Shown: positions 25,001 to 51,776, numbered from the stretch's first letter. The stretch is 64,000 bases of DNA from Desulfobacterales bacterium (GCA_029939715.1 JAOZSJ010000003.1:1880-65879); one strand, 5' to 3'. Numbers and translations: made by a program. The notes: generated by a model from the letters alone, not told the origin.

Positions 25001-28000
25001 TTGGCGGTGTTGGCATCCTTCAGATAATATCGGTATGTCGTGCCGGAGATAAGCTGCGGTCTGCCGACAATGTCAGGGATACCGCCGGTGCCCTGAATCA
25101 GTTTCACATCGCCTGTGCCAGTACCTGCCAGGCTGATTTCATCACCGTCAATACTATTTGTATTAAGAGGACTGTCGCTGCGGCTTGTAAAGGTAACGTC
25201 GATATAGCGCTTTGCGTTCAGGGACTCGGCAGACAGCACCGCACCGTTGGCGGGATTGGTAAGGGTGGCACCTGGTGCGGGCGGCAAAAGCTCTCCCGAG
25301 GCATTCCTGTTCACAAGGCTGAAACGCTCTGTCTCCGCAAAATTGGCATTACCATCGGCATCATACCAGGATCCGGCAATAAAACCGAGCTCAACATCAC
25401 CCGACCGGGCAAAGCTGCCTGTAATGGTGTAACGATACGTATTGGGAAATCCGTCTGCAACCTTTTCCGGGCGGCCGTTCACCGTAATGCCGGATATGGG
25501 CTGATTGTTCATGAGCAGCATAAATTCCGGGGAGTTATCCAGGATGCTGTTATCATTCAGGCCGACATTATTCGGGTCACTGAAGGTTACCTCGATATAT
25601 TTTTTATCCGCCGTCAGTCCGTTTATTTCGGCCCGGTCATATGCCATATATCCCATATTGCCGATCTCAAAGGAATCCTTGCCGAAACTTGCAGCGGACA
25701 TGTCCGCTGTTGGAAACAGGACAGGGATATCGGACAGCGGCGAATCAAAACCCACCTGATCAAATATCTGGAAATTATTTATATTGAAACTCTGCATCCT
25801 GAATCCGTCGGTACCGCCGATACTGAATGAAGCGCTGCCTCCGATCTCAAAATACTCCTGGCCCCCGACCGTAATCCTGACATAGGCACCGGCAATGGCA
25901 ACATCGATGGCACCCGTGGGTTTTTTGGAAAAACTGACAGTTCCCCCGATTTTCAGGATATCCAGTATGGATATATCCATACTTCCGGTAAAGGATGTCA
26001 CCATTACAGGTGTTGCAAAATCTATAACAACTGATTTTTCAGTATTTGGAATGTTTATTTCCCGATAGACCACCTGGCCGGAAGTATTGATGTCAATTAC
26101 AGCACTGCCGCTGATATCAAGACCTGCAAGACCTGCAAACGCGATATCTCCACTGGCATGCAGGGCGTATTTTCCGCCATCGAATTTCACCATTCCGATC
26201 TGCGCATTGGTAAGCAGAACACCGATGGCATCGGGGTTTACCTCTCCGTCATCGTTGCGGTACGGCCCCTGGCCCATGAAGACATCGATGCCTTCACCGC
26301 CAAAGGCGTCGCCGCTGAATACGACACTCCCCTCGATGGAGATAAAATTTGCGATATTCAGTTTTGCTTCAGAGGCAAAGAAGATAAACCCTGTTTCCTC
26401 GGCGCTGAAGCGGATCAGGATGGTACTGCCGTTGACCTCGATTTTCTCATCGACACCGCCGCCGGTGGTGTTGATCATAAGGCCCAGGGTTGCCTCGACC
26501 TGCACGGGCCCGCCGCCGCCCAGGGAGCCGACACCCGAAATAATACCGGCAACCCCTGAACCGGTAATCACAAGAGCGCCCTGACCATTTGTAATACTGC
26601 CGCCAAGACTCTCATCACCAAACTCAATACCCGTTACGGCCATCCGGGTAATCTTTTCGCCGGTTTCTGCCCGCGTGGCCTGATCAAAATAAAGGTTGCC
26701 TTCAAGGGTATAACCGCCGATTGTAATTCCGGCGTCAAGAGCGACGATGCGGACAAATACGCCAGCCGGGAGCACCATGTGTTCGGTGGTTGTACCAACG
26801 GTAAAATACTCATCCACTGCTGCCGGCAGCGTGTTTATTTCAAAGGTGATGGTTTCACATGAGAGGGTAAAAACAGATCCGATATTCAGATCATCGGGAT
26901 CAATGGTCAGTTTTCCGGCAATTCCCTGGGCGGTTATCAGCATGACACCGCTTGGGATACCGAGGCTTAAAATCGTGGAAGATCCGCTCTTGAGTTCAAG
27001 CTCAACTTCTGAAACAGCCAGTTTAACAACCCGGCTGCCGCTTTCGGTGCTCGTCTGTTCAAAGCTGAAGTTGCCTGAAAGTGTCTGTCCGAGGATGGAA
27101 AGAGATACATCAACACCCTCCACCCGCAGAAACGGTCCGGCATCCAGACTCAAGGCGACTGTTTCGCCGCCCGTGACAAATATTTCGTCAACAGCGCTGC
27201 CGGTATTGTTTATGGTAAGGGCGAAACTGCCTGCAAATTCAATACCGGGAATGTTTTCCACACGGATATCGGCGCCTATCTCACCGGCCAGTCCCTCGCT
27301 TGTAATCAGCAGTGATCCCCGGCCGTTTTCAACAACTACAAAATCGGTGGTGCCGTTACCAAGCCCCACTGATACATTTGAAGCTCCGATGCGGACAACA
27401 CTGCTCGTCACACCGCCGCTGATGGAACTTACCTTTTCAAAAGAAAAATTACCGCCAAGGGTCTGTCCGAGAATAGTAAGTTCAATGCCGGTTCCTTCAA
27501 CCCTGACAGAGGATTCCGCACCTACATCAACCGTGATCTCTTCGTCCCCGATGGTAAATGTCTGGTTTATGGGTCCGCTGGTTTCAACAATAGATACTGT
27601 AAATGTTCCATCAAATGTAATTCCGGGCACATTTAATCCGACAGCGGCGCTGATCCGGCCGGCCATGCCGCTGTCTGTAATAACCAGGTACCCGGATCCG
27701 TCATGCACGCTGACCACATCGCTTGATCCGTCTCCAAGGCGCAATGCGATATTGTCGGCCGCCACAATGACAATCCGGCTGCCTTCAACGGTTTTTTGTT
27801 CAAAGGCAAAATCACCGGAAATCGACTGCCCGGCAACAGAGAGGATGACATCACTGCCTTCAACGCGGAAATAGGGTCCCTGCGGGAGCAGGAGAGAGAC
27901 GGTGCTGCCGCCAATGACAAAAGTTTCCTCAACCGGGGCCATGGTATTATTTACGGCGATCTCAAATCTCCCTGCAAATCCGACACCGGGAATATTCCTG

Positions 28001-31000
28001 ATTGCCACCGCGGCGCTGAAGCGGCCTGCAAGACCGGCATCGGTGATTATCAGGAGGCCTTCACCTCCGGAAACGCTGACAAATTCCGTGGTGCCGTCGC
28101 CAAGACTTAACCCGGCGCCGGATACAGCCACGCGAATCACACTCGATCCTGCAGCGGTTGTTGCTTTCTCAAAGGCAAAATTGCCGGTCAGTGTCTGGCC
28201 TAGGATTTCAAGATCGAGATTTTCGATCTCCACTTTAAGGTACGGACCTGCCGGCAGTTCCAGGAGGCGTGTATCGTTTCCAACCGTAAACTCACTGGAA
28301 ACCGCCTGGCCCGTATTGTTTACCGATACCGTGACGCTGTCCACAGTTGTCGTCGTAATTCCGGGAATTGTCAGTGTTACACCTGCACTGATTTTTCCCG
28401 CCAGCCCGTCGCCGGTAATAATAAAATAGGCCTCACCGTTTTCAATTGTGACATAATCGGTGGTACCTGAGCCGATATGCAGTTCCACCCGGGTTGCACC
28501 CATCCGTACAATTCGCTGATTGTCGGCAGTTGTGGCCTGCTCGAAACTGAAATTTCCGCTTAACTTCTGGCCGAGTACTTCCAGCGAAGCAGTGGTGCCG
28601 TCCTCGATCCCCGTAATATCCACCTTCAGGTAGGGACCCGCCTGCAGATCAAGGGTTATCTCTTCATCACCGACTTCAAAGGTTTCAAGGACCGCCTGGC
28701 CGGTATTGTTGACAGCTATGCCAAATGCACCCTCCAGGGAAATTCCGGGAATATTGACGGAAACATCAGCACCCAGATAGCCGGCAAGGCCCGCGCTTGT
28801 GATGAGGAAACTGCCCTGTCCGTTGGTGACCGATACAAAATCCGTATGACCGTTGCCAAGGCCGAGGTGGACATTTACAGCAGCAATCCTGACGGCATTT
28901 TCGTCATCGGGCGTACCGATCAGGCCGTCGATGCCTGCGCTTGTAACGCGCTCAAATGCAAAATCACCGCCCAGCGTCTGCCCCAGGATATTCAAATTGA
29001 CGCCGACCCCTTCAACTCTCAGGTAGGGACCGGCCGGGAGATCAAGTGTGATGGTCGTTCCATCAAGAATTATCGTATCGTTTACAGCCGACGGGATATT
29101 ATTAACCGAGAGTTCAAATGATCCGTTAAAAACAACCCCCGGCACGTTAAGACCGACACTTGCCCCGATTTTACCCGCAATGCCCGCACCGGTTATAAGC
29201 AGGGACCCGCTGCCCCGGGAAATGGAAACCGCATCACCGATGGCAAGACTGACATCAGAGGCTCCGAGTCGTATCACGCGCTGTCCGAATGAATTTATGA
29301 CCTGCTCAAAAACAAAATTACCGGAAAGATCATTATCAAGGATTGAAAGTGTGGCATCGGTGACTTCCAGCCTGAGATAGGGTCCTGCCGGAAGGTCCAG
29401 GTTGAATGAATCAAAACTTTCAGATACGGGCGCCGCGGTATTATTCATGGCAAGCCTTATCGTACCTGAGATGGACACGGCATCCAGGTCCAGGGTCATG
29501 GATGCATTCAGCATACCCGAAACACCGGCAGTGGTGATCAAAAGTGCTCCGGAATCAATTTCAATTGAAAGGATATCACCCGCATCGTCGCCAAAGCCAA
29601 GCGCCGCATTTACAATGGCAATTTTTACAATCCGCTCGCCGTCGGGTTTTGTAAGCTGCTCAAAGACAATCTGCTCCGCGGTCAGTGAAATCCCGAGAAT
29701 TGTCAGGCTTGCAGGAGTTGTCCCCTCCGACGCATCACCGATGCTCCCTCCAGAGACGGGATTCAATGCATAAAGTCTGTTTAATGCACCCGTGTTTACA
29801 ACAACCAGTTCAGGGCCGGTGGCGGCAGTGTTCACATCTCCGGCAAGGATTGAAACGGTGGCATCCGCATCTGCTGTAATATCGGAAGCAGACCATGCAC
29901 CGGCGTTATGGGTATAAAGCCTGTTAATTTCATTATAATTACCCGCGGCAATATCAAGGTCGTTGTCTCCGTCGGCATCAAAAAAGGCAATGGCCCGGGT
30001 ATCGCCGTCATCTAACGTTATATCGGCACCGGCATCAAATCCGGCCCAGATGTTGCCGGCGGTTCCCGAATTCAGGTAAAGCCGGTTTACGCCGGTATTG
30101 CCGGCAGCCAGATCAAGGTCTCCGTCATTATCAATATCGCCAAGGGCAATGGCATGGGTTTCACGCGCGTCCGTGGTTAAATCCGTGCCCGGGCCAAATC
30201 CCAGCCAGTCCCCGCTGTCCCCGTCAAAGGCCAGCCATGCACCGGAATTTTCATCATAGCCCGGATTCAGGTAAAACCGGTTTACACCGTTATTACCGCT
30301 TACAATGTCGGAAGCACCGTCACCGTCAATATCGCCGCAGACAATGGAAGTCGTCGAATTTTCGGCATCGGAAACTGCAAGGCCCTCTTCAAACCCGATC
30401 CACTCACCTGTCGCATTGTCAACTCCCCGGTTAAAATAAATCCGGTTTACCCCGCCATGACTGGCTGCGATCAGATCGACATACCCGTCTTTGTTAAAAT
30501 CCTCAAGGGCAAGATCCCTTGTGTCGTCGGCATAGGTACCGATAATGCGGCCCACGGCCATATCCCAGGGGTTATCGTCTCCGTCATTTAAATAGGTAGT
30601 GTTGGCCTGATTAGAATTTCCCGCAACGAGATCAAGGTCCCCGTCATTATCAAGATCGCCAAGGGCAAGGCAGGAAGTTGCATCAGTCTCAAAACCCACG
30701 TTAAGGCCGAAAACCATATCCCATGGATCTCCATCTCCGTCATTGAGATAGAGGCGATTCATGGCAAGGGCGCTTCCGACAACAAGATCAAGGTCGCCGT
30801 CGCCGTCTACATCGCCAAGAACCGAACAGGTATCATCGGCAGTATCGTTATCAATACCGGCCACTTCCACACGCACATAGGGTCCGGAAGGCAGGATGAG
30901 GGTCATGGACCTGCCGCCTGCTTCAAAGGACTCTTCAATCTGCCGGTCGGTACTGTTAATGGCAAGTTCGATGCCGCCGTTAAAGGAGACCCCAGGAACA

Positions 31001-34000
31001 CTGATGTCGACATCACCGCTCAACCTTCCCGCAAGCCCGGCGGCGTTGATCACCAGCAGTCCATGGCCGTTTGAAATGCTGACAAAATCGGTTGTGCCGT
31101 CCCCTAAGCCAACATTTACCTGATTTGCTGCAATTTTAACGATATCCGTATCATCATCATCCCCTGTAATCCCGTTGGGTCCGGCAGACCTGATCTGTTC
31201 AAAGGCAAAATCGCCGCTGATTCTCTGGCCGAGCAACCGCAGATTTACGTCGGTGCCCTCGAATCGCACATAGAATCCGGCAGGCAGGTTAAGATTGATG
31301 CTCTCCGTACCGACTTTGAACTGCTCATTTACCACACTTGTCGTCGTATTGATGGCAAATCCGAAGGTTCCGGAAAATTCAAATCCAAGTGATGGATTAA
31401 AGATGACTGTCCCGCCAAGGCGCCCTGCCAGACCGCCGCCCGTAAAGACAAACATCCCCTCTCCGTCAGTGAGTGTAACAATCGGGGTTTCTCCGGCCAT
31501 CATTTCAAGAGAGACATCAGTTGCGGCCAGAGTTAAAATCATGGGAGGTGTGAAATCCGGATTTTCTGCTGACTGCGGACTGTAATTACCTGTAATTCTT
31601 TCAATAAAAAAGTTTCCGGAAAGTTTCTGTCCGGCGATTTCCAGTAAGGCATAAGGATCGGTTCCGCTGCCGGTTATGGAGAGCCTGAAATACGGTCCGG
31701 CCGGAAGATCCAGGATAATGGTTTCATCGTCTGTGTCTATGGCGGGGTCGTGTCCCAGAATAAACGTTTCGTTTATCTGATTATTTGTATTGTTGATGGC
31801 AATGCCGATGGCCCCGCTGAAAGAGACAGGGCCTACTTCAAGGGATTGAATATCAACAGATACCTCTCCGGCAAGTCCGTCTCCTGAAATCAGCAGTGCA
31901 CCGCTTATGTCTTCAATTGTGACAAGATTAGAGTTCCCGTCGTTTAACGACAGGGATGCGCCGGCCACTGCAATCTTGATATCACCGGCTTCATTTTTAC
32001 CCGGTGTGGCCGGATCATCCGCACCCTTTTCAAATAAAAAGGTTCCGGAAAGAACCTGACCGAGGATATCCAGATCAATGGTGGCCTCAAAGCGTCTTGC
32101 GCCGTAATTTATCGTATGATCGACACTGCCGCCGTTGCCGTCGGGTACGGAAACAATCGTCTCACCGCCGATGTCACTGTATTGTACAACCGCACTGCCG
32201 GAAAAGGATACGCCCGGAATACCGAGAATCATGACCTCCCCTTCGGCATACAGGGCATAGGTGTATGGGCCTGATCCGGACCGGATCAGACCGATGTTGG
32301 CGTTGTCCAGGAGTACGCCCCTTGCATCGGGATTGATACTGCCGTCTTCAAGCTTTACCGGTCCCTGGCCCATGAAAACGGAGATTCCGCTGCCGGAAAA
32401 AGAGCCTCCGGTAATATTGATTTCATCGCCTTCAATGATGACGAAATCACCGATGTTGATGGAGGCTCCGGAAATGATAAAGTTAAAAAAGGTGGAAGGA
32501 TCAGCGATCTCACCGTCACCAAATTCTATTGTAAGGCTCTGACCGTTAAGCTGAATCTCCTCATAAACCGTATGCGATGTAGAATTCAGGCGCAGTTTCA
32601 CGCCGGCACCTGCATCACAGCCGCCGATGCCAAGCGATAGCTGTCCGGAAACAAACCCGGCAATACCGTCGGAATAAATGACAAAAGCGCCCTGGCCCTG
32701 ACTTATTTCAAAATTATCTCCATCAGAATAATCAAAAGAGACATCCGACATGGCAAAGCGGGTTATTTTTACATTATCAGCATTTGTGGTCTGGTCAAAA
32801 AAGAAATTGCCGCTGAAGGAGACACCGCCCACGGACAATGTCAATTCCACCACCGATACCCTGACAAAGGAACCGCCCGCCAGATCGTTTTCATCTATAT
32901 CGCCGTCATCATCCAGGTCAAAGGGAAGCGGTCTTGTGTTGATTTCAACCCTGGTTGTGCCGCCGCTCACGGTTACTCCGGGAATATTCAATATATCAAG
33001 TGTAACATCAAAACTTGCCGCAATCCCGAGGCTGTCAATAACAAAAACAGCGGAACTGCTGGTTACAAGGACAAAAGGATCTGAATCAGAACCTAATTTG
33101 AGTTCAAAATCGGTCACCCGGAGAGTGAGCCTGGTGCCTTGAGGCGTATCTTCTATTTCAATGGCAAGGCTTTCACAAACGATTGACTGCCCGGCAATAT
33201 CAATATCAATATTCGTACCTTCGATGAAAAAACCATCTTCGATCAAAATTTCATCAATAGTTTTTTCACTGCCCGTGGTGTTTATTTTCACCTGGAAACT
33301 GCCGTCAAAATCGACCCCCGGAACATTGACGCCCACGCTTCCGGAAAGATAACCGTACAGGCCCTTTTCAACGACCACACCGTTTTCAAATATCTTTATG
33401 ATTTCAAAAGCACCCTGGCCGTTTGTGACCTGTATTATACTGTTATCCCCTTCACCAACCTTGAGTTCGACATCGGCAAAAGAGACCCTCACTGCCGTGG
33501 AAAGACCGGATGAAGTGCTCTGCTCAAAAACAAAACCGCCGGTGAGCAGAACCCCGCCCACTGAAAGCACAATACTGTCGCCTGCAACCCTCACATATGG
33601 ACCGGCCGGCAGGTCCAGCGTTTCTTCAACGTCGCCTGTAATAAAAGTTTCATTAACAATATGCCCGGTGGTGTTTATTTCCACGTCAAGGATTCCGCTG
33701 ACAACGATACCAGGGATATTTAAAGATGCACTGCAGCCGAGGCTGCCTGCAATTCCAGTGCTGTCTATCACGAAATTGCCATGGCCGCTGCCCACCGTTA
33801 AAATGCCGCTGCCAATGTTCATGGCAACCTGGCCTGCGGAAATTTTGACAACCTTTTCACCGCTGTCCCGGGTGGACTGCTCAAATGCAAAATTTCCACT
33901 CAGAGTTTGACCGAAAACGGAAAGGAGCACACTGTCACCGGCGATCAAAAGGTAAGGCCCGGCATCGAGTTCAAGTGTCAAAGTGCCGGATCCTGCCTGT

Positions 34001-37000
34001 ATGATTTCCGATACCGCGGCATCGGTTGTATTGATCTTGAGTGTGAAATCACCGCTGAAGGATACATCATCTCCTGCCTCTACACTGACACCGGCAGAAA
34101 GAGTTCCGGCCGCACCGGCTCCGGTAAAAACAAAGAAGCCTTGCCCATCAGTCACGGAAACGATGCCGTCGGCAAGGGAGATCTCCACATCCGATGCGGC
34201 AACGCGCACTACTGCCTGCCCGTCTGCACCGGTAACCTGTTCGATGACAAAATTGCCTTCAAGGGTCTGACCCAGGAGTGAAAGGGATGCCCGAGTGGTG
34301 TCATCCACCCCGGTTACTGCAACTTTGAAATAAGGACCTGCCAGAAGAGCTGCAGGTTCGGCATCAGGTAAAAGCTGGATATCCCCGGCAGCAGCGGTGG
34401 TGTTCACAAGCACAGTAAAACGGCCGGATAAGGATATCCCGGATAAATTTACGGCAAGGTCCGTGGAGAGCCCGCCCATGAGCCCGGCACTGGATATTTC
34501 AAAAAACCCGTATCCATTTGAAAGGCTGATGACGGGCGTAGTGCCCCCAAGGGAGATGGCAACGTTTTCCGCACGGGCACGCACAAGTGTATCGGCGTTT
34601 TCCGTGACCTGTTCAAAGACAAAATCACCTGTCAATGTCTGGCCGGATATGGACAGGCTGACATCTGTCCCGGCAAGGCGCACATAGGGTCCGGCGGGAA
34701 GTTCAAGGGCCACGGGTATGGAACCGGCCATGATGGTTTCATGGACATCTACACCGGTTGTGTTGATCTGCAGGTTAAGGGTTCCGGAAACTGCAACATC
34801 CGGGATATGAACGGCAACACTGCCTGAAAGCTCTCCTGCCAGGCCCGCGTCTGTTATAAACAGGGCACCGGTTCCATGAGTAACTGTGACCAGATCATCT
34901 GAGCCGTTTTTCAGGGAGAGCGTCACGTTGGCAGCGGCAATCTTTACAATTTTTACAGGCTCGGGATCCGATGTAACCGTCTGTTCAAATGAAAAATCTC
35001 CGGAAAGACTCTGGCCAAATACCTCAAGCTGCAGGCCGGTCCCCTCAAATCTCAGGTAGGGTCCAGAGGGCAGGATTAATTCAAGAACATTTGAATCTAC
35101 AAGGAACTGCTCATGAACGGCAAAGGTGGAAGTATTTACGGCGAGACTGAGATTACCGGCAAAGTTGATGCCCCCCGGGATTTCCATGGTGACCGTGCCT
35201 TCGAGTCTGCCGGCAAGGCCTGAATCGCTGATGACAAACATACCCTGTGCCTCTGTGAGGCTGAGGATATCATTTGATCCTGCTGTCAGGGAAAAGCTCA
35301 CATTGTCCGCCGCCAGTTTCACGATGGATCCGCCGGCGGGCGATGTCAACTGCTCAAAGGCAAAATCACCGCTGAGCGTCTGCCCCATAAGTTCAAGGCT
35401 GACATCCTGACCTGCAATCCTCATAAACGGCCCGGCACGAATATCCATGACAAGCTGTTCTTCTCCGAATACAAATATCTGGTTCACCGCTGCATGGGTC
35501 GTATTGATTTCAAGGGCAAATGTACCCGCAAAATCCACACCGGGAATATTCTCGGTAATGGCTGCCGATACGCTGCCGGCAATGCCGCTTCCCGTAAAAA
35601 TAAAGGACCCGCTGCCCTGGGTGATACTGACAAGATCGGTTGATCCGTCACCCATGGACATACTGACATCATTTGCAGCCACGCGAAGTGTGCCGGCCAT
35701 ATCGCCACTTGTTATTTTATCAAAGGAAAAGTCACCGGCAAGACTCTGACCGAAAAGGCAAAGTTCGGTATCGGCTACCTGCAGGCTAAGCACCTGGTCG
35801 CCGGAATCAAAGGTAACCGGGACGCCCTCGTCATTTGAACCCGGAATGGAAAGTGTTTCATTTATTGCCGTGCCGGTTGTATTGACCCTGACAGAGGCTG
35901 TTCCGCTGATGGTGATACCGTCAATACCGATAAGCGCAACGCTGCCCGTGGCATATAATGCAAAGGTATCTCCCTGGGCCTGTGTAATTTTTATCAACCC
36001 TATTTTTGCATCGGAAAGAAGAACGCCCGAGGCAAGGGGATTAATATCTCCGTTATCCAGTTTTGCAGGCCCGCTGCCCATGAATATCATCAGTTCATCA
36101 CCGGCAAAAACAAGCCTGTTGCCGTTTTCCACAAAACTGATATTGCCCTCGATTGAAATAAAATCGGCAATATTCAAGGAAAGGTCTGAAATGGAAAAGG
36201 AAAAAATGTCGCCTTCGGATTCTCCAAAACGGATCACAATGGATCGGCCGTTAATATCTATGGTTTCATCAACGGCCCCGCCGGTTTTATTGACACGCAG
36301 GATAATATTTCCACTGGCATCGGCTACGCCTGCATCAAGGGATGCCGAGCCGGAAACGACACCTGCGACACCTGCCGAAGATACGACAAATCCGCCTTCA
36401 CCGTCGGTGAGACTCTGGTCTCCGATGGCCACTGTTACATCCGATACGGCCATCCGGGTAATTTTATCATCATTTTCATCCAGGCGCTGATCAAAATAGA
36501 AATTCCCTGAAATTGCAGGAGAACCGGCCCCGATGGTTATTTGCGCGCCGATGATGGCCACCCTGACAAATGATCCCGCGGCAAGATTCAGTGTGATGGT
36601 TTCACTGCCGATTTGAAATGTCTCGTTGACAGGGGCCGGGGTTGTATTGATTTCAAAGGAGACCGTTCCGCCGCTGATTGATACGCCCGGCACATTAAAT
36701 ACGGGATCTATTGAAAATCCGGCGGCCACTCCGGAACTGCTGATGATCATCGCACCGCTGCCGCCGGTTATGGCGACAAACGGACTGGCAGGATCGCCGA
36801 GAGTTAAATTAAGCGCCGATGCCCCCAGTCTGACAACGCGCTCTCCTCCTGCAGTGGTGATGGATTCAAAGGTAAAATTGCCGCCAAGGCTCTGACCGGC
36901 GATCTCCAGTGATACGCCAACGCCTTCTATCCTGACAAATTTATCCGCCGAAACCGTATCGATCTCAAGGGCAAAGGTACCGGAAAAACTCAAATCCGGG

Positions 37001-40000: not shown

Positions 40001-43000
40001 TCAAATGCATATCCGCCTGGAGCGATAAGCACCATGAGCTCGGCACCGGAAACACGGACGCCGATTTCCTCACTGTCACTGCCCACAAAAAGATCCACCC
40101 CTGCAGCGGCAATCAGTATCTGTGTCGGGCCATCAGGTGATGTTGTCTTTTCAACGGCAAAACTGCCGGAAAGGTTCCCAAGGGGGGTTTCAAGGGTTAT
40201 ATCATCCGCCCCCAGCCGGCTCATGCCCGCGGCAACATCAAGGATGACCGGTGTAGTGCCGACGGTGATGGATCGATTCACATCCGTAGTCATGGTATTC
40301 TGACTGGCACTGAGAACGCCGCTGAAAACCAGTTCAGGGACACCTGCAATTTCGGCGCTGCCGCCGGCATTAAATGCGTAGGTGCCGTCGGGTTTGATCA
40401 AAAGGGCAAATTGAGCCCCACTGACCCTGACGCCGAGGTCGTCGCCTTTATCCACGGTCTCATTATCATCACCTGCAAAAAACTCGATGCCGGTGCCACC
40501 GGCAATAATTTCATTGGTTACGCTGTTCTTTTCAAAATAAAGTGATCCGGTCAGGTCTGCCACGGGGGTGGACAGGGTAATTAAATCGCCCGAAAAACAG
40601 AGGAGATCGGTATCATCAGGCCCGAAATCAAGAACATGGTCCGTTCCATTGATATTGATCACCTGATGGACTTCATTGCCTGTGGTATTGGCACGCATGG
40701 ACAGGGAGCCGCCAAGGGAGAGGATGCCTTCAAGCCCGGTAAGCGCCACATCCCCGGATGCATCCGCCGCAAATGTAGAGTTGTCGTAAATCACCATCAG
40801 TAAAGAGGCGTCGCTTAATGAAATTCCCACCGAACCGGGTACACCGAGAAAAGTGTCCACATTAATGGCGCCGATCTTGATAACAGGGTCTGAAGGGCCG
40901 GTGGCATCGGATTTTTCAAAGAAAAAATCCCCCTGGATGGATACAAAATCCTCTATTTCTAGGTCTGCAAAACCGGACATGCGAATAAAACTGCCGGCTG
41001 CGTCAAATGTCAACGGTATGCCCGAGACTGTTTCATTGACACTGATACCGGTGTTGAACTCCAGATCAAGGCCGGCACTCATGACCAGATCGTCAATGCC
41101 CGAAAGGTCCGCAACCCCGGCTGCCCTTCCGGCCATGCCGTCCCGGGTCAGGATAAAGGCGCCAAACCCGCCTGCAAGATCCAGGTGTACATTTTCACTC
41201 CCGATGGAAAAAGTCACATCAGAGGCAGTAAAAATCATCGCTGTGCCTGATTGTTTAAAGACAAAGCTGCCCGTGAAAGTCTGGTCAAAAATAGTCAGAT
41301 CGACCCCGGCAGCTTCCACGCGGATAAAAGGACCGGCGGAAACATCAACCACGAGCACCTCTGCCCCGGAATTTTGAATCGTTTCGTAGACAGCAATATG
41401 GGTGGTGTTTACTGCAAGCGTTATATCTGCCGCCATGTTGACCGCACCGGGAATATCGATGGTTGTATGAGCGGACACCTTTCCCGCAAGGCCCGTGGAA
41501 GTCAGTAAAAATACACCATTTATACCGGTGATTTCAGCAAGGGGGTCGGGGTCGTCTCCGTCGGTGAAAAGAATATTTCCGGAGGTAACAGCCACGGTGA
41601 CCGTCTGGGTGTCGTCATCGGTGCCGGCCTGCCGGTCCGGACCGTCTGCTCTCTTTTTCTGAAAAATAAAAGCGCCGTCGGTAATCTCCTGATCGGCAAT
41701 CCCGAGGGTCAATCCAGTGCCGGAAACCGTTATATCGCTCCCGGAAATATCCAGGCTGATATCAGCGGTGAGGATTATGCCGGTATCCGGATTTACATGG
41801 ACGTGAGCCGAGGCCGAACCGGTAAGGCCCGAATCACTGTTCAGGGTAAAACCGCCATGGACCTGAGTCACCGAGACCAGTTCGGTTGTACCGTCACCCA
41901 GCAAGAAGGCCACGTTATCAAAGGCCACATCTATCATTGCCTGGGTTCCTGAACTCACGTCAAAATCAAAATCACCTTCAAGGGTCTGGCCGGCCACATG
42001 AAGTTCCACCCCCGTGCCTGAAATACTGAAAAAGTTGGTTTCTTCATCTGAAAATTTTATCGATACCGTGTCGGTCCCCATCAGGAAAGTCTGATCCACA
42101 GCGCCATCGGTGGTATTCATGTCGAGGCGGAAGGCTCCCGAAAAATCAACATCAGGAACGTTGAAGGCAACCGAGGCGCCAAGGGTTCCGGCAAGCCCGG
42201 TACTGCTTATAACAAAAAATCCTTGACCGTCCGAGAGGGTTAAATACTCACTGTCTGCCGATCCAAAGCCGATCCTGACATTGGATGCGGCAGCGACTAC
42301 GGTCTCTCCTGCCTTTTCAACGGCAAAATCACCGGTCAGGGTCTGCCCGTAAACCGTAAGTTCCACATCCCTGCCGTCAATACGGAAATAGCTTCCCCCG
42401 GGCAGATCAAAATCAAAGTTAATGGTTTCACCGTTGACTTCAATGGCCCCTGTCTTTGCTACCGGAACAGGCATGGTGTTGACTGAAACGGCCAGGCCCG
42501 CTCCGAAAGCGACATCAGCAGAAGCGTTGATTTCAATTCCGGCCTGCATGGTTCCCGCCAGCCCCTGGCTGTTAATTACAAAACAGCCGAACTGGCCTTC
42601 TCCCTGGGCAATGCTGACCGCATCTCCAAGATTAAGTTCCACACCGGAAAAACAGACCGTGAGCAATTTTTCACCATCTTCTGCCGTCACCTGATCCAGA
42701 GAAAAAAAGCCGCTGAGGATCTGGCCGAGAACAATCAATTCAAGGTCGCCGGAAAAACTCATATCGCCGTCACTTACCGTGACGGGATCACCGCCTGTCG
42801 TAAAGGTATAATCAAAACCGATATTATTGAATCGAACCGATGCCGAGCCTGAAAGCTGCGCATCGGACACCCCGAGCAGTTCCACATCACCTTCGGCATA
42901 AAGGGCGTATGAAGAACCGCTTTGAAAAATTTCCACAGATCCGTTGTCCATCAAAAAACCGCTGGCCGCAGCACTGGTTTCCCACAGTTCGGGATCATCA

Positions 43001-46000
43001 CCTGTTTTGACCTTGGCAGGTCCTTTGCCCATGAAGATGCTCAGCCCGGTGCCGGAAAAAACTCCGTTGCCGCCAAAGGAGATCTCATCTCCCTCTATGG
43101 TGACAAAACCGCCTATATTAAGGACAAGATCCGCACCGAAAAACATGAAATAAGGGCCGGTATCGCCGGCAGTTTCGGCAGCACTGAAACTGATGACAAT
43201 TTCACGGCCGTCCAGAATAATGGTTTCATCAACGGATAAACCGGTGGTATTGATCTTGAGTCCGATGCTGCCACCCATATCAAACCCGCCATCAGCGCTG
43301 ACACTGACCTCACCTGAAACCGTACCGGCAATTCCGCCGATATCACTGCCGCTACCGGCAACTATGACAAAAGCACCCTCTCCGTTTATAATTCCGTTGC
43401 CGTCGTAGGTCAGCGAAATACCGGTCATGGCAATTCTGGTCACGCTTGAACCGTCGGGCCGCTCACTTTGATCAAAACTGAAACTGCCTGTAAGTTCAGT
43501 GCCGTTGATGCCGAGGATCGCGTCGGTAACCACGATCCTTACAAACGGACCTGCGCCAAGGGATAGATCTATGGTTTCACCGGCGACCTCAAGGGATTCA
43601 TAAACCGGGACATCCGTGGTGTTCAACTCAATCGACACCCCGGCATCGGCAAGTGATATTCCCGGGACATCAAAATAAGCCGTTGCTGCAAAACTGCCGG
43701 CCAGACCGATGCTGTTGAAAACAAAAACGCCCTGACCACCGGTAACTCCCACATAGTCATTTTCGGTACTGCCAAGAGTCAGGGCAACATCGGATAGGCC
43801 TATAAGGACAATGGCTGAATTGTCGGCGGCGGAAAACTGCTCGATGCTGAAATTTCCGGAAAGAGACTGCCCTGCCGCGGACAGGCTCACATTACTGCCG
43901 CTTACCCGGACATATTTATCCGTGGGCGAGGTGGTATCGATGGCAACGGAAAATACACCTGAAAAAACAACTCCGGGAACCTGGGCTGTAACCAAAGCCT
44001 GGTCAAGAAATCCTGTAATACCGGAACTTTTAATCTCAAGACCGGCGAAATCCGCTGCCACATGGACAAAATCGGAAGTACCGTCCCCAAGAGAGAGCGT
44101 CACCGAATCAGCGGAAAGCGCAACCGTCGATTCACCGCTGTTATCGTCAAATCCGTATTCAAATTCAAAAATTGCGGCATTGAGCCGGATACCGAGGATA
44201 TGAATATGACCGCCGGCAAGTGCCGTCCGCACAAAAAAACCGCCCGGTTCCGCGGCTTCCACCGTCTCACCTGCCAGGGTATGGGCGGTTTCGGTGGTGT
44301 TGAAAAGCAGGGAGACCGTGCCCTCAAGGGTAATGTCACCGCCGAAATCAGGCCCCTGTACAGCGGCATTTACAGCCGCTCCGGCAATACCGTCCGGCGT
44401 AAAGATAAATGCAAATTCCGCATCTTCAATACTGATTACACGGGTCAGTCCTGCCTGCAGTATAAAGTCCAGGTTTTCACCGGAGATGGAAACATCTGCA
44501 CCGCTCTTTTCAAGGGTAAACCGGTCGGCACTCAGCCTGTTTTCAAACACGGTCAGGCTTCCGGAAGCTATTTCCACCCGGACATAGCCGGTGGCAGCGG
44601 CATCTACTGTAATGGTCTGATCATCTATGACCAATGTCCGGGTCTGCCCGGTTGTGTTGACCAGGAGCGAAACGACACCGTCAAGTGAAATATTTTCCAG
44701 ATCCGGTCCTGATACGACGGCATTGATCACACCGCCGGCAATGCCGGTGTCGGTAAATATGAATCCAAAATCAGCATCGTTGATCTCGACAATCCGGGTT
44801 ATGCCGGCCTGCAGTAAAAAGTCCAGATTTTCACCGGAGATTGATACCTCGGCCCCGCTTTTTCGCAGCACAAGGCTATCGGCTGTCAGGCGGTTGCCAA
44901 GAATTTCAAGGGCTGCGGGCTCGTTATCCGACAGGGCCGTTATGCCTAAATAAAAATAGGGACTGTTCGTCCCGGCCGCGGCAACGGTCAACGATTTTCC
45001 GTTTAATTCGAAGGTCTGCACTGTTGTGGTCGTATTAAAGGAGAGCGACAGTTCTCCGGCAAGAGAAATACCCGAAAGTGCAGGACCATTAAAATCGGTT
45101 ATCACAACCCCGCCGGCGATACCGTCATGGGAAAAAATGAATCCGAAGTCGGCCTGCAGGACTTCAACAATCGTCGTTCCACCGGCGGCAAGGTTGAAAC
45201 TGAAGCCCTGACCGGTGACCGTCACTTCAGCGCCGCTTTTTTCAAGAACCAGACTCTGGGCCGTAATTGTGTTGTCCAGTATATCCAGTGTTGCCGGAGC
45301 ACCTGTTTCGGTATCTTCACTGATTTCCACCCTGAAATAAGGGCTGCCCGTCTCGGCCCCTTCAACGGTGATAGTTTCAGTAGTGATATTTTCAAATGAC
45401 TGGATTGTTGCCGTTGTATTGACAAACAGCGACACCGAACCTTCAAGGGTGATAAAATCAAGATCCGGACCGGTCACATCCGCATTAACCAGCACACCGG
45501 CAATACCATCGGAGGTAAAGCGGAATCCGAAAGCAGCATCATTTATCTCAATAATCCGGGTGGTGCCTGCCTGCAGGAGAAAATCAAGGCCCTGCCCCGA
45601 AACATCGATCACCGAACCGCTCTTTTCAAACACCAGGTGATCGGCTGTCAACGTGTTGCCCATAATGCCCAGCTCCGCATCAAAAATCACAGCCTTGACA
45701 TAGAAGCTGTCCGCACCGGCACCACTTACTGAAACAACCTGGCCGCCTGCCATGATCTCCCTGGTGGCCTGTGTTGTATTCACAAACAGATCGGCCCTGC
45801 CGCCAAGGGTAATTTCCCCGGCAAAATCAGGCCCAAACATCCGGGCATCGACAACGGCGCCGACTATCCCTTCCGAATTAAGCTCAAATGCAAAATCCGC
45901 ATTAGTTACAGAGAGTATCCGTCTGTTTTCAACCCCGAGCCGGAATGCAAAACTTAAATTGTTTCCTGAAATGCCGACAACGGCTGTATCGCTGCTGTTT

Positions 46001-49000
46001 TCTTCAATCACCAGCTCATCGATGGAAAAGTCAAAGCTGTCCATCACAGTCAGTGTTATACCGGTACCGACAATTCTGACAAACGGTCCGGCTTCAAGAC
46101 CCAGGGAAAGCAGGGTATCATCAATTGTTGTTTCCAGGTTTACAGCCAGGCCGGTGCTGTTTAAAGACAGCCTGAAAGTCCCTGCCAGGGCAGCTTCCGG
46201 ACCGGCTATGGAAACCCTGGCCCCGCACTCGCCGGCAATACCTTGGGAATCAAGGATAAAAAAACCGCTGGCCTGATCGACAACGACAAGATTTGATCCG
46301 AGGTTAACTTCAACATCATTGAAAACGGCGGTCACAACCGCGTGATTTTCAGATGTAGTCTTCTGCTCTATGAAAAAACTGCCGCTCAGGGTCTGATCGC
46401 CCACGGCAAGTGTTGCCGGGCCGGTTACTTCAATCCTGAAATAGGGGCCTGCGGGAACACTAAGATCAATGGTTTGCCCGTTGACCTCAAAGTTTTTTAC
46501 AACAGCCTCACCGGTGCTGTTGACAGCCAGGGCCACATCACCCTGGAAAGAAAGGGAACCGATTGCCAGCCCGGCGCCAAGATCCAGCTTACCGGCAATG
46601 CCGGATTCCGTTATCAAAAGTGCACCGCTGATATCACTCAATGCTGCAAGGTCACCTGATTCATCACCTATATTCATAAAGGCGGCACTCACCCCGATCT
46701 CTATGGCGCCGTCTCCTCCAGCGGATCTTTCAAAGGAGAACGTGCCTTCCAGCACCTGATCAAGAATGGTAAGAGCAATGCCCCCTTCAAAACTCAAGGC
46801 TCCTGCGATGACTGAAATCGTACGGTCATCGGCCAGAACAACCGACTCGTCACTGCCTGTGTTGTTCACCCGTATAACCGCAGTTCCTGAAAAGGATACG
46901 CCCGGAATTCCCAGCAGCACCACCTGACCTTCGGCATAAAAAACATACTCACCGGCAGCCGGAGTATAAAGTCCGAATGAGGCATCCTGGAGAAGAATAC
47001 CGCTGGCACCGGGATTTATGGAGCCGTCATCAAGGACGCCCGGGCCTTCTCCAAGAAATATACTGGCATCTGCTGCAGAAAGCCGGCCGTCACCTCCGAT
47101 GCTGAAACTGCCCTCGATGACGACAAAATCGGCGATATTGATTCTGCCGCTGCCGAAGAACTCAAAAAGATCGGTTTCCGAAGAATCAAAGAAAATGGTA
47201 TAGATAACGCCGTTAACGTTGATGGTTTCATCAACCGATCCGCCGGTTTTGTTGATTCTCAGCCCCAGAGCCGCATCGACGCCGGCCTGGCCCCCTTCGA
47301 CATGCAGATCGCCGGACATGACGCCTGCAATTCCCCTTGCGGTAATAACGATTGCCCCTGCGCCGTTTTCAAGGGTCTGGTCGCCGATGGTAACTTCCAC
47401 CTCAGTGAGTATGATCCGGGTAATGACGGCACCGTCTGTTTCCCGCTGATCAAAATAAAAATTCCCCTGCAGCAGGCTTTCGCTGTTTCCGGCAATAGTT
47501 GCCGCTGCATTCAAGACAGCCACTCTTACATAGGGTCCTGCAGGGAGTTCAACAAGGTCAGGCGTTTCACCCATGGAAACACTTTCCGACCGCGTATTGA
47601 TCTCAATTAAAACATCTGTTGTATCCAGCTCGAACTGGTCAATCTCAAGGGCAATTGTACCACCCAGCACACCGGAAATGCCGGCATCACTGATATTCAA
47701 AATACCGGTTGTGACCGCAGCTTCAACAAAATCGGTGTTCCCGTCACCAAGGGTAAGGTCGGCATTTGAAACCCCCAGTGTAATCTGATCACCGCTCTTT
47801 TCAAACAGGAAAATACCGCCAAGGCTCTGGCCGGCCGCGGTAATGGAGCCTGCCAATTCGACCTTAAGATACTCGCTGCCCGCTTCAGTCGTATCAAGTT
47901 CCAGCTTAAAGCTGCCGGCAAGTGCAATACCTTCGATCCGAGAGGTAAAATTTTCAAGCAGATCCAGATCAATGGCGGCGATGATCCCGTTTTCGGTTAT
48001 CTGCATGAAACCGCTGCCTGCAAGACTGGCCAGGCTTTTTTCACCGGCGGCAAGTTCAAGTTCATCGATTCGGGTGGTTACGGCAATATCAATGCCGTTT
48101 TTCTCAAAAATAAAAAGACCGGCTATGGACTGATCAAGGAGCGTCAGCGCCCCGTCTAATTCAACCCGCAAATAAGAATCACCGGTTTCATTGACAGCCA
48201 GGATTTCCGGAAGCGCCTCTCCGCCGATGGCGGTAATTGTTTCACCTGTGGTATTGAGCTTAAGTGTAAAACCGCCGTCCATTGCCAGATGATCAAACCC
48301 GGTTGTAGAACCCGCGGCGACGGACAGTTCGATAAACGCACCAATACCGCTGGTGTTTATCAGCATTGAACCTGCACCGGTCAATTCAATCAGGCTTTTG
48401 TCGCCTGCCTTCAGCTCAAGGCTGTCGATATCTGCACCAGCCCTGATAGAGGCGCCGTCTTTTTCGAAAACAAATTTTCCGGCAAACAGTTGATTAAACG
48501 CTGTCAGGGTCCCATCCATCTCAATGAGAAAATATGCATCCCCGGCGTCATTTACCGCAAGCTCTTCCACAAGAGGCGTTCCACCTATGTGGGTGACCGT
48601 TTCACCGGTGGTATTAATTTTAAGATGAAAAGTTCCGTCCAGTGAAACCAGATCGATGGTTGAATCCGCAGTCAATGTCAAATCAAAAACGGCGGCAATG
48701 CCCTTTTCACTGATCTGGATAAAACTGTCTGTGATGGAAAACAGAGCAAGACTTTTAGCCTCATCTCCGGCACCTGTTTTTAAATCCAGGATAGCGGATG
48801 TGATATGAACAAAAATATTCCCATTGTCCAAACCAAAAGAAAAATCCCCCGAGATGGTCTGCCCCAGAATTTCCCAGGAACCGGAAATATCGGCAGACAG
48901 TGATTTGCCGGCCAGAAATGAGGCCAGTGCATTTTTCATACCTGGGTCATCCGCGGTACTTACCTGCAGATCATCAGAGGCGTTCACCACTTCGAGTACC

Positions 49001-51019: not shown

Positions 51020-51693
51020 TCACAGCTCCCTAATAAGAGATCTGGCCGTCTTCCAGAGCCCTCTCCTTTCTTCAATTAACTCGCGCAGTAATCGCACCCT
51101 GTTTTCAGTTGACCCGCCATATTCATCCGTCCGATTGTTGGTTTTAGAAGATAAAAAAGGTGAAATCAAATAGTTGTGGGTTGCATACACATAAATGATA
51201 TCAAAGCCGGCGGTTTTGGCGCGCCTGGCAGCAGCCACATGCCATCTCCGAATTTTTTCTAATCGGATTTCCCCATAATACTGCTTTGAACCGGGTCATT
51301 GAATACGGCCGGTCTGCTGTATGCTGCCAACGGGGCCTCACGCGAATATAAATTCGCAACCTGATGCCCGCCATGCCATGGTTCAACGCCTGCCAGTGAT
51401 CCATGTTCATGCACCTTTTCAACCATTAAGGCGTTTGCTTTAATGTCTTCTTCATCCCAGAGACAGGCATGCGGATACGGTATATCTTCTGAAGTAGGAT
51501 GGATAGAACAGTATTCCGTATTAACGACACCCCAGCCCCCTTCCGCCTTCATTCCCCGCATCGCAGCGAGTGTATTGGGCATTCTGTAACCCATGCCGGT
51601 GGCATGAGGCACCTGATAAAATCTGTTTTTTGCTGTGACCGGACCTATTTTTACCGGTTCAAATAATATATCAAAGTAGGGACTGCGAGTCAT
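51020..51693 (-). pseudogene. Frameshifted and 3'-truncated Old-Yellow-Enzyme-family flavoprotein gene, closest in my recollection to the N-terminal domain of trimethylamine/dimethylamine dehydrogenase
   Basis: ATG at 51693 with an AAGGGAG RBS 5 nt upstream. [36 protein letters not shown]...AEGGWGVVNTEYCSIHP parallels the TMADH N-terminus ([23 protein letters not shown]...KAEGGWAALNTEYCSI). That frame stops at 51259-51261 (..MGKSD*). The homology then continues in another frame (LEKIRRWHVAAARRAKTAGFDIIYVYATHNYL...NNRTDEYGGSTENR) and ends at 51020, around residue 225 of an expected >600 aa. Confidence 0.75.
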
Positions 51694-51776
51694 GAAAACT
51701 CCCTTGTATTTATTAATGTTATGTACTTTCACCTGTTTTGATATCTTTGACAAATGTGGCGGAACCATCGACATTA

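What the first reader, a model, noticed from the sequence alone, without database searches (positions are those of the whole stretch)
26070..47470. Hierarchical super-repeat: six ~210-aa 'cap' modules punctuate the 120-aa array at irregular intervals
A second conserved unit occurs six times (46855-47470, 42825-43490, 38450-39120, 35872-36510, 32170-32810, 26070-26700). It reads (F/Y)(Y/F)FDQ ... ADF(V/I).(I)EG ... (I/V)F(M/L/I)G.GP..L.(D/N)G.(I/V)NP.A.G(V/I)LL.(D)A..G ... ALYA.G.V..(L/I)G(I/V).G(V/I).(F/I)SG(T/S)A. I translated the F.G.GP...NP core by hand in five of them. The sixth (42825-43490) rests only on the antisense GPLPMK reading in track ORF 42944-43153. By span, the caps are separated by about 4, 9, 10, 5, 8 and 12 ordinary modules. 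This suggests segment-level organisation: a shaft built of sub-rods, each closed by a cap, rather than a homogeneous repeat.
Basis: seen in the sequence. Interest (0 to 1): 0.65.

Follow-up and report, generated by a model that had tools for sequence, protein, structure and literature searches.

The report
Conserved two-module landmarks in giant stalk protein
The six "caps" are real, but each is a pair of specialised copies of the same ~120-residue beta module that builds the rest of the array, and relatives in other bacterial phyla keep these pairs at the same positions in a giant secreted surface protein.

Summary

**The gene.** One stop-free frame on the minus strand runs from the ATG at 50781 off the window start (at least 16,927 aa). 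It has an N-terminal LEPR-XLL motif and C-terminal RTX repeats.

**The array.** Frame residues 634-8263 (nt 26023-48912) are tiled by 59 all-beta modules of about 120 aa. The only interruption is one FG-GAP propeller.

**The caps.**
- The six caps are mutually homologous (BLAST E 1e-45 to 1e-60, 37-46% identity).
- They are not a second kind of unit. Each is two consecutive diverged modules, type A then type B (hhalign against ordinary modules: 99.8% and 97.7% probability).
- B carries an 11-residue insertion. Its loop, F-x-G-x-G-P..N-P-x-A-x-G-x-L, is almost invariant in 35 caps from several taxa.
- Spacing is 4, 9, 10, 5, 8, then 11 modules plus the propeller.
- Flanking modules do not co-repeat, so there is no larger repeat unit.

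**Conservation.** Relatives in Verrucomicrobiota MAGs align module for module. The motif AB-5-AB-8 recurs there, and AB-3-[gap the size of the window's propeller]-8-AB recurs in library proteins. A is followed by B in 141 of 156 cases.

**Structure.** AlphaFold models are confident (pLDDT 85-88, pTM 0.71-0.77). They show the same eight-strand layout in cap and ordinary modules and have no PDB counterpart.

**Function.** The most likely role is a fixed structural landmark in a stalk. This is inferred, not shown.

The parts
1..50781 (-). Giant gene. ATG at 50781, at least 16,927 codons, and the 3' end runs off the window start.
   Evidence: The frame is stop-free from 50811 to 1. The first Met begins 'MPLNRSKTENIFELENLEPRILLSADP'. 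Collinear giant ORFs exist in other genomes.
50686..50748 (-). LEPR-XLL N-terminal motif (FELENLEPRILLSADPLLGAL)
   Evidence: NCBIfam NF012209 scores 29.2 bits against a cutoff of 17, at residues 12-32. Translation checked.
26023..48912 (-). Array of 59 all-beta modules of about 120 aa (frame residues 634-8263), interrupted once by the propeller
   Evidence: An iterated module HMM tiles the region with gaps of -1 to 27 residues, apart from one 400-residue gap. Pfam and NCBIfam find nothing for the modules.
47170..47541 (-). Cap 1, A-type module (m05)
   Evidence: capA HMM 168 bits against 63 for the ordinary HMM.
46792..47169 (-). Cap 1, B-type module (m06). Loop FLGEGPGVLDDGSINPGASGIL at 46993-47058.
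   Evidence: capB HMM 167 bits against 24 for the ordinary HMM. Loop coordinates.
43159..43554 (-). Cap 2, A-type module (m16)
   Evidence: capA HMM 168.5 bits.
42760..43158 (-). Cap 2, B-type module (m17). The loop at 42952-43035 is degenerate and longer, with no N-P.
   Evidence: capB HMM 160 bits. It is the only outlier among the 35 loops compared.
38776..39189 (-). Cap 3, A-type module (m28)
   Evidence: capA HMM 159 bits.
38365..38775 (-). Cap 3, B-type module (m29). Loop at 38584-38649.
   Evidence: capB HMM 188 bits.
36214..36579 (-). Cap 4, A-type module (m35)
   Evidence: capA HMM 168 bits. Modelled by AlphaFold.
35800..36213 (-). Cap 4, B-type module (m36). Loop FMGSGPAKLDNGDINPLASGVL at 36019-36084.
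   Evidence: capB HMM 180.5 bits. In the cap-only model the loop occupies residues 170-183, where block pLDDT is about 80.
32494..32877 (-). Cap 5, A-type module (m45)
   Evidence: capA HMM 175 bits.
32095..32493 (-). Cap 5, B-type module (m46). Loop at 32311-32376.
   Evidence: capB HMM 176 bits.
26389..26766 (-). Cap 6, A-type module (m58)
   Evidence: capA HMM 159 bits.
26023..26388 (-). Cap 6, B-type module (m59), the last module of the array. Loop at 26215-26280.
   Evidence: capB HMM 172 bits. Downstream of it the module HMM gives only weak fragments.
29713..30888 (-). FG-GAP (integrin-alpha-like) beta-propeller inserted between modules m49 and m50
   Evidence: Pfam FG-GAP_3 E 1.3e-32 and FG-GAP E 4.9e-19. 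Several library proteins show the same 3-modules / gap of 377-451 aa / 8-modules context; I did not scan their gaps for FG-GAP.
39853..40998 (-). Modules m23-m25, which are B-like intermediates without the loop motif
   Evidence: capB HMM 51, 32 and 17 bits, against 12 or less for most ordinary modules.
7..828 (-). C-terminal RTX nonapeptide repeat block
   Evidence: Pfam HemolysinCabind E 1.2e-26 with 6 stretches. NCBIfam RTX-family models match as well. Translation.

Best explanation
**Shown.**
- The window encodes most of a giant, very acidic protein of at least 16,927 aa. It has an N-terminal LEPR-XLL motif and C-terminal RTX repeats.
- Its first ~7,600 residues after a 630-aa head are a chain of 59 all-beta modules of about 120 aa plus one FG-GAP propeller. 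The module family is unannotated. Each module is predicted as eight strands: five or six long and bent, two or three short.
- Each of the six 'caps' is a heterotypic pair from that same module family.
  - The A-type module is close to the ordinary type. It has its own invariant residues (FDQ, TR, VDE, and a modified tail).
  - The B-type module always follows A. It belongs to a more divergent class and lacks the AGPY start motif.
  - B has an 11-residue insertion between strands 3 and 4, which forms the loop [IV]F[LM]G[QE]GP[AG][KR]Lx[NDS]G[ES]xNPxAxG[VL]L.
- The A-B pair and its positions are old and fixed. Relatives in other phyla align module for module and share the AB-5-AB-8 motif. Several library proteins share the tail AB-3-[gap the size of the window's propeller]-8-AB.

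**Inferred.**
- The protein is probably secreted by a type I system and forms a surface fibre of roughly a quarter micron, in which the modules make a continuous, rigid stalk.
- The A-B pairs are built-in structural landmarks that set the local geometry of the rod (junction, twist or kink) and display one conserved loop.
- They are neither terminators of separate sub-rods nor a different fold.
For: **Gene and termini.** Stop-free frame. LEPR-XLL at 29.2 bits against a cutoff of 17, and RTX repeats. Net charge is about -11 per module, with K+R about 3.6%.

**Caps belong to the module family.**
- The module HMM tiles through the caps.
- Clustering puts the A modules and the B modules into two clean groups.
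- hhalign gives 99.8% for A and 97.7% for B against 47 ordinary modules. The B loop appears as an 11-column insertion.

**Same predicted layout.** The model of module-A-B-module has pLDDT 84.9 and pTM 0.71. The cap-only model has pLDDT 88.4 and pTM 0.77. Strand order is identical in all module types.

**Conservation.**
- Ten genome loci hold caps at 46-49% identity to the window's.
- Module strings such as oAB-8-AB-8-AB-5-AB-8 appear in those loci.
- Window modules m28-m43 align collinearly with L002, L003 and L009 at 35-54% identity per module.
- Positional orthologues of caps within Chthoniobacterales are 71-87% identical, against 58% or less for paralogous caps.
- 462 representative proteins carry a B-type module at E<=1e-10.
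- A is followed by B in 141 of 156 cases, and the commonest spacing is 5.

**Structural rather than binding role.** The residues at 97-100% in 35 caps are G (13), A (5), F (5), N (3), P (2), L, Q and T. None is aromatic-polar or acidic.
Against: - No experiment or measured geometry supports a structural role.
- Among close orthologues, caps are no more conserved than ordinary modules (0.74-0.75 against 0.72 identity). There is no sign of special selective pressure on them.
- The loop keeps a basic residue (K/R in 27 of 35) and an acidic one (E/D in 24 of 35) in a protein that is otherwise poor in lysine and arginine. That would also fit a binding or Ca2+ site.
- The type I secretion inference rests on RTX repeats alone. 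The 3' end of the gene and any transporter genes are outside the window, and the 13 kb upstream holds only unrelated metabolic genes.
- pTM as an indicator of rigidity is weak evidence.
Confidence: 0.6

Rival explanations
1. The B-loop is a binding site. The caps are spaced docking or adhesive patches along the stalk, for a ligand, a partner protein, Ca2+, or lateral self-association of fibres. The rest of the A-B pair only presents the loop.
For: The loop is the main insertion that separates B from ordinary modules. It is nearly invariant across phyla and includes a conserved K/R and E/D. It is modelled as an ordered excursion with pLDDT about 80. Conserved module counts between caps would fit a spacing requirement.
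Against: The invariant positions are Gly, Pro, Ala, Asn and Phe, which define shape rather than chemistry. Cap 2 of the window has lost the N-P loop yet keeps the rest of the cap at 316 bits. No known binding or Ca2+ motif matched in Pfam or NCBIfam.
Confidence: 0.2
2. Caps are joints or terminators that divide the shaft into separate sub-rods, acting as hinges or edge-capping units that close each run of ordinary modules.
For: The three junctions around a cap are atypical. A has a modified tail, B lacks the AGPY start, and the module after B also starts late in the HMM. Cap 6 sits exactly at the end of the array.
Against: A and B have the same eight-strand layout as ordinary modules. The four-module model through a cap is confident as a whole, with pTM 0.71. 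No linker or low-confidence segment flanks the caps: no stretch has pLDDT below 50. The array also starts without a cap (4 ordinary modules come first).
Confidence: 0.12
3. Historical relic. The A-B pair is simply an old duplicated block that spread within the array by unequal recombination. It is now conserved like any other module and has no role distinct from them.
For: Among close orthologues, caps evolve at the same rate as ordinary modules. Other module subfamilies also exist in the array (m09-m13 at up to 64% identity, m24-m25, m02-m03). That shows local duplication does occur.
Against: The A-then-B order is kept in 141 of 156 cases across hundreds of proteins. B keeps a near-invariant loop across phyla. 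Spacing motifs are shared between Desulfobacterota and Verrucomicrobiota proteins. Flanking modules were not co-duplicated.
Confidence: 0.08

Closest known systems
LEPR-XLL domain-containing proteins (NCBIfam NF012209, 'LEPR-8K')
   Same: The N-terminal motif matches above the curated cutoff. Like that class, this is a very large, repetitive, uncharacterised protein.
   Different: The family is defined only by the roughly 24-residue N-terminal motif. Nothing in it describes the 120-aa modules or the A-B pairs. Only two papers in the library mention the name, each once.
Giant RTX adhesins secreted by type I systems (LapA, MpIBP, SiiE, BapA class; from my own knowledge)
   Same: Giant and very acidic, with C-terminal RTX repeats. 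A long 'extender' of tandem beta modules of about 100-120 aa. A different, candidate ligand-binding domain (the FG-GAP propeller) sits in the chain.
   Different: The extender modules are not BIg or Ig-like by Pfam, and the models have no PDB counterpart. The modules average only about 28% identity and have positional individuality, unlike the near-identical repeats of those adhesins. The N-terminus is LEPR-XLL, not a retention module. Secretion genes were not seen.
Titin A-band super-repeats of Ig and Fn3 domains (from my own knowledge)
   Same: A giant filament protein in which two module types occur in a fixed order, and each position is conserved between species more than neighbouring modules are to each other.
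   Different: Titin's super-repeats are regular 7- and 11-domain units repeated as whole blocks. Here only the A-B pair recurs, intervals are irregular (4, 9, 10, 5, 8, 11 plus propeller), and flanking modules do not co-repeat.
Fibrillar adhesins with repeated stalk domains (Monzon et al., 10.1101/2020.12.07.414375; PMC9210967)
   Same: The general plan is shared: a long stalk of tandem repeats plus at least one different, potentially adhesive domain (abstracts seen).
   Different: The stalk module is not among annotated stalk domains (no Pfam hit). The anchor and the adhesive function are unproven here.
Outer-membrane beta-barrels and SlpA (best Foldseek hits)
   Same: They share long antiparallel up-and-down strands. 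Best hit 8agd_A has E 2.6e-5.
   Different: TM-scores are only 0.14-0.23 for the four-module model and 0.26 or less for the cap. This is a local strand-meander resemblance, not the same fold.

Membership tests
LEPR-XLL domain-containing protein (NCBIfam NF012209) | N-terminal LEPRxLL motif scoring above the curated cutoff | tested here: met
   29.2 bits against a cutoff of 17, at residues 12-32 after the Met.
Type I-secreted giant RTX adhesin | C-terminal RTX nonapeptide (GGxGxD) repeats | tested here: met
   HemolysinCabind E 1.2e-26 with 6 stretches at nt 7-828. A second, smaller block lies at 17125-17226.
Type I-secreted giant RTX adhesin | C-terminal secretion signal and cognate ABC, MFP and OMP genes | not testable with these tools
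   The gene runs off the window start. The 13 kb upstream holds MttB, saccharopine dehydrogenase, DAO, a solute ABC importer and a BTAD regulator only.
Type I-secreted giant RTX adhesin | Extender built of BIg or Ig-like repeats | tested here: not met
   No Pfam family matches any of the 59 modules at E<=0.01. Foldseek finds no Ig-like hit.
Type I-secreted giant RTX adhesin | N-terminal retention module or LapG-type cleavage site | not tested
   In the first 990 residues Pfam found nothing and NCBIfam found only LEPR-XLL. No dedicated search was run.
Regular super-repeat (titin-like) | A multi-module block repeated as a unit with constant period | tested here: not met
   Intervals are 4, 9, 10, 5, 8 and 11 plus the propeller. 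Modules at offsets -5 to +6 do not co-repeat (p 0.07-0.82).
Same module family as the 120-aa array (are the caps diverged modules?) | Full-length profile-profile homology and the same secondary-structure order | tested here: met
   hhalign gives A 99.8% (E 1.5e-27, 123 columns) and B 97.7% (E 1.8e-12, 107 columns). All have eight strands in the same order.
Fibrillar adhesin (Monzon et al.) | Stalk of tandem repeats plus an adhesive domain plus a surface anchor | tested here: inconclusive
   The stalk is present. The FG-GAP propeller is a candidate binding domain. No anchor was identified and adhesion is untested.
AsmA/TamB-like or other solved beta-meander folds | Structural match to a solved member | tested here: not met

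The most novel reading that the evidence does not exclude
The ~120-aa modules are an unsolved two-layer beta-meander rod fold. The conserved A-B pairs act as geometric joints that give a quarter-micron fibre a defined three-dimensional path or register. On this reading the number of modules between joints (5, 8, 3+propeller+8) is kept across phyla like a molecular ruler, for example to position the propeller and the loops at set distances from the cell surface or from each other.
Probability: 0.15. Interest if true: 0.7.

Novelty: new variant of a known kind. Interest (0 to 1): 0.4.

Why it matters
Giant bacterial surface proteins are usually treated as monotonous repeat arrays, and assemblies often break inside them. 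Here the array has a fixed internal grammar:
- two module classes occur in a set order;
- module counts between landmarks are conserved between a Desulfobacterota protein and Verrucomicrobiota proteins;
- the module family is absent from Pfam and NCBIfam, and Foldseek finds no counterpart in the PDB.

This gives three practical returns. The B-loop motif is a usable signature for finding and aligning these proteins. The conserved landmarks give a register for checking assemblies of such genes. The A-B pair is a concrete target for structural work on how very long beta-rods are organised. The function itself remains unproven, so the interest is moderate.

Tried and rejected
- **Pfam and NCBIfam on the whole protein.** Nothing matched the modules or caps. 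A weak DUF7407 hit (E 0.006, below cutoff) was dismissed as chance.
- **Sequence profile of 47 modules against PDB chains.** Only two chance hits to L25, at E about 0.6.
- **Mean-field DCA on 1,603 modules.** I hoped for strand pairings independent of AlphaFold. Gap and indel artefacts dominated the signal. A few ladders appeared (around columns 68-78 with 96-104, and 57-58 with 83-90) but were too noisy to use.
- **A larger repeated block around the caps.** Rejected. A tendency for a short module (94-108 aa) two positions before caps 1-4 was noted but not tested further.
- **Recent horizontal transfer judged from composition.** GC3 of the giant gene is 0.53, inside the range of the flanking genes (0.39-0.64). 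Not supported.
- **Stronger purifying selection on caps.** Not seen.
- **Thr-Gln ester or Asn-Pro self-cleavage chemistry at the invariant Q, T and N-P residues.** Considered from memory only. There are no supporting catalytic residues (His is 0.3-0.7%), so I did not pursue it.
- **Word-indexed protein searches.** Only 8 and 13 fragmentary hits, with one name (Planctomycetota MAG). They say little about taxonomy.


Full report
**What is in the window**

The minus strand carries one stop-free frame from nt 50811 to nt 1, which is 16,937 codons. The first Met is at 50781 and begins MPLNRSKTENIFELENLEPRILLSADP. The 3' end of the gene lies beyond the window start.

NCBIfam recognises the N-terminus as the LEPR-XLL motif (NF012209, 29.2 bits, cutoff 17). 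Pfam and NCBIfam find RTX nonapeptide repeats at the C-terminal edge, nt 7-828 (E 1.2e-26), and a small block at 17125-17226.

Exact matches of the flanking proteins place the window in the MAG 'Desulfobacteraceae bacterium 4572_123' (OQY08210-OQY08217). The upstream genes are unrelated to the giant gene: two MttB-family methyltransferases, saccharopine dehydrogenase, a DAO oxidoreductase, a solute ABC importer and a BTAD/TPR regulator.

**The array**

An iterated HMM seeded on one module tiles frame residues 634-8263 (nt 26023-48912) with 59 modules of 94-143 aa. Gaps between modules are -1 to 27 residues, apart from one 400-residue gap. That gap is an FG-GAP beta-propeller at nt 29713-30888 (FG-GAP_3 E 1.3e-32). 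Pfam and NCBIfam do not recognise the modules. They are very acidic, with net charge about -11 per module, and show alternating hydrophobic positions along the strands.

**Checking the observation**

- Cap 1 finds the other five at 37-46% identity, E 7e-45 to 6e-60. It finds ordinary modules at 20-33%.
- A cap HMM scores the six at 316-344 bits. Everything else in the protein scores 31-70 bits, and only over the first half of the model.
- The full extents are 248-275 aa: 46792-47541, 42760-43554, 38365-39189, 35800-36579, 32095-32877 and 26023-26766.
- The module string is ooooAB-9o-AB-10o-AB-5o-AB-8o-AB-3o-[propeller]-8o-AB.

**What a cap is**

The general module HMM runs straight through each cap as two modules. 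In an alignment of all 59 modules, the first halves (m05, 16, 28, 35, 45, 58) form one cluster, which I call A. The second halves (m06, 17, 29, 36, 46, 59) form another, which I call B.

Within-group identity is 41% for both. To other modules it is 26% for A and 20% for B.

Profile-profile comparison against 47 ordinary modules gives:

| Module type | Probability | E-value | Aligned columns |
|---|---|---|---|
| A | 99.8% | 1.5e-27 | 123 |
| B | 97.7% | 1.8e-12 | 107 |

In the B alignment, the stretch GPAKLDNGDINP appears as an 11-column insertion.

So a cap is not a second kind of unit. It is a heterotypic pair of diverged copies of the array's own module.
- (F/Y)(Y/F)FDQ is the A version of the ordinary FxFE.
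- ADF(V/I).IEG is strands 1-2 of B.
- F.G.GP...NP.A.G.LL is the B insertion.
- ALYA.G.V..LGI.G..FSGTA replaces the ordinary GxFxIT..GIAG.L segment.

**Predicted structure**

AlphaFold2 on m34-A-B-m37, using an alignment of window segments and database fragments, gives pLDDT 84.9 and pTM 0.71. The cap alone gives pLDDT 88.4 and pTM 0.77.

Every module, whether ordinary, A or B, has the same order of eight strands: five or six long strands of 12-17 residues joined by tight turns, then two or three short ones. B differs by a 14-residue loop between strands 3 and 4 and a longer loop before the last strand.

**Relatives**

A genome scan with cap 4 returned ten loci. Eight are stop-free in the matching frame across the whole locus (up to 21 kb). 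In L004 and L008 the frame is interrupted. The loci come from MAGs labelled Chthoniobacterales, Spartobacteria, Verrucomicrobiia and Akkermansiaceae, and from one bin labelled Actinomycetes. Their caps are 46-49% identical to the window's.

Their module strings show the same A-B punctuation, for example L002 oAB-8-AB-8-AB-5-AB-8-... and L010 oAB-5-AB-2-AB-2-AB-2-AB-5-AB-8-AB.

Window modules m28-m43 align collinearly with L002, L003 and L009. Every module is 35-54% identical to its positional partner. A modules are at 43-47% and B modules at 46-53%.

Within the Chthoniobacterales group, caps at the same position are 71-87% identical, except the second cap position at 54-58%. Caps at different positions are at most 58% identical. 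So the architecture predates these lineages.

A B-only profile searched against 1.84 billion representative proteins finds 716 proteins at E<=1e-3, 462 at E<=1e-10 and 104 at E<=1e-30. Many are 2-8 kaa long. In the best 146:
- A is followed by B in 141 of 156 cases.
- The commonest AB-to-AB spacing is 5 modules.
- Several proteins (P0037, P0039, P0076, P0095) repeat the window's tail, AB-3o-[377-451 aa]-8o-AB. I did not scan those gaps for FG-GAP repeats.

Some other giant proteins (P0036, P0041, P0043, P0110) consist of tandem runs of weakly B-like modules without the loop motif, and they also have no Pfam family. B therefore belongs to a second class of a wider module superfamily. Window modules m23-m25 are intermediates of this kind.

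**The B loop**

Across 35 non-redundant caps the consensus is [IV]F[LM]G[QE]GP[AG][KR]Lx[NDS]G[ES]xNPxA[TSR]G[VL]L. F, both G, A and the last G are present in 35 of 35. P, N and P are present in 34 of 35. The whole-cap positions at 97-100% are almost all Gly, Ala, Phe, Asn and Pro. That pattern points to a shape constraint rather than a chemical one.

**Tests that came out negative**

- Modules at fixed offsets from the caps are no more alike than random sets of ordinary modules (p 0.07-0.82). There is no larger repeated block.
- Among close orthologues, caps are no more conserved than ordinary modules (0.74-0.75 against 0.72).
- GC3 of the giant gene (0.53) lies within the range of its neighbours.
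- A DCA attempt at independent strand pairings was too noisy to use.

**Interpretation**

Shown:
- The caps are real.
- Each is an ordered A-B pair of the array's own module family.
- B carries a near-invariant loop insertion.
- The pair and its positions are conserved across phyla.

Inferred:
- The protein is a type I-secreted fibre in the manner of giant RTX adhesins. The basis is the RTX repeats, the acidity and the lack of a Sec-type leader. The 3' end and transporter genes were not seen.
- The module chain forms a continuous rigid stalk. The basis is the high pTM through four modules.
- The A-B pairs are structural landmarks that set local geometry and display one loop.

I put about 0.9 on the anatomical statement and about 0.4 on the structural-landmark role.

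**Comparison with known systems**

- The protein is a member of the LEPR-XLL class by its N-terminal motif.
- It resembles giant RTX adhesins in overall plan. It fails the defining BIg-extender feature, and its secretion apparatus is unseen.
- The ordered two-type pattern with position-specific conservation recalls titin super-repeats, but it is not periodic.
- In the library I searched, the LEPR-XLL name appears only in passing in two papers, and searches on giant proteins and fibrillar adhesins turned up no description of these modules or of the A-B punctuation.

I rate it a new variant of a known kind (a giant repeat stalk protein) built from an unannotated module family, and of moderate interest.

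Noticed in passing
window 29713-30888 (minus strand): An FG-GAP (integrin-alpha-like) beta-propeller sits inside the module array between m49 and m50. Several library proteins (P0037, P0039, P0076, P0095) have a gap of 377-451 aa in the same '3 modules, gap, 8 modules, AB' context, though I did not scan those gaps. In L002 a larger insertion of about 1,150 aa also contains FG-GAP repeats.
   Followed up: partly
window 44245-46092 (modules m09-m13): Five consecutive modules form their own subfamily, with m10, m12 and m13 at 55-64% identity. This is the most recent-looking internal expansion in the array, and it lies inside the 9-module interval between caps 1 and 2.
   Followed up: no
window 39853-40998 (modules m23-m25): Three modules are intermediate between ordinary and B type (capB HMM 51, 32 and 17 bits) and lack the FxGxGP..NP loop. 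They resemble the units that form long homotypic arrays in other giant proteins (P0036, P0041, P0043).
   Followed up: partly
whole array 26023-48912; motif near the end of each module (e.g. INTTG, VNKTG, LNSTG): An N-x-T/S tripeptide is present near the C-terminal third of 51 of 59 modules, and N and T are at least 90% conserved in the four-module alignment. It has the form of an N-glycosylation sequon (14 of 100 sites have D/E at -2). It may equally be a purely structural turn.
   Followed up: no
window 51259-51780 and the ~480-bp spacer down to 50781: The Old Yellow Enzyme (Oxidored_FMN) gene immediately upstream of the giant gene is a pseudogene. It is frameshifted (the AGFD..THNYLISPFLS..RTDEYGGS segment continues in another frame) and truncated at roughly two thirds of the family length. 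This may be a scar of a rearrangement at the giant gene's 5' end.
   Followed up: partly
window 17125-17226 (minus strand): A second, small RTX (HemolysinCabind) block lies in the middle of the protein, about 5,600 residues before the C-terminal RTX region.
   Followed up: no
window 1-26022 (minus strand, frame residues 8264-16937): The distal half of the protein is not built from the 120-aa module. It contains several other weakly repeated segments (self-hits around residues 9400-9800, 10860-10920, 13500-13620 and 15100-15500) and has no Pfam family apart from RTX. Asp rises to 10%.
   Followed up: no
window 26087-26584 (+) and 35846-36490 (+), among others: Plus-strand ORFs of 165-214 aa lie antisense to caps 6 and 4 (other long plus-strand ORFs lie elsewhere in the gene). 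They are most likely spurious products of the stop-poor composition of the giant gene. The relatives also show very long antisense open frames (up to 2,714 aa in L006).
   Followed up: no
modules m03, m14, m26, m33 (window 47878-48183, 43921-44244, 39571-39852, 36949-37242): A short module (94-108 aa, lacking the usual tail) sits two positions upstream of caps 1-4 but not of caps 5-6. The next module then lacks the AGPY start.
   Followed up: partly
L008 (CAVRTK010000006.1) and L001 (ERZ25039536 contig_18329): L008 carries a homologous giant gene but is binned as 'Actinomycetes', unlike all the other hits (Verrucomicrobiota), so it may be mis-binned. In L001, L004 and L008 the gene is broken into several frames, which looks like frameshift errors from long-read assembly.
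   Followed up: no
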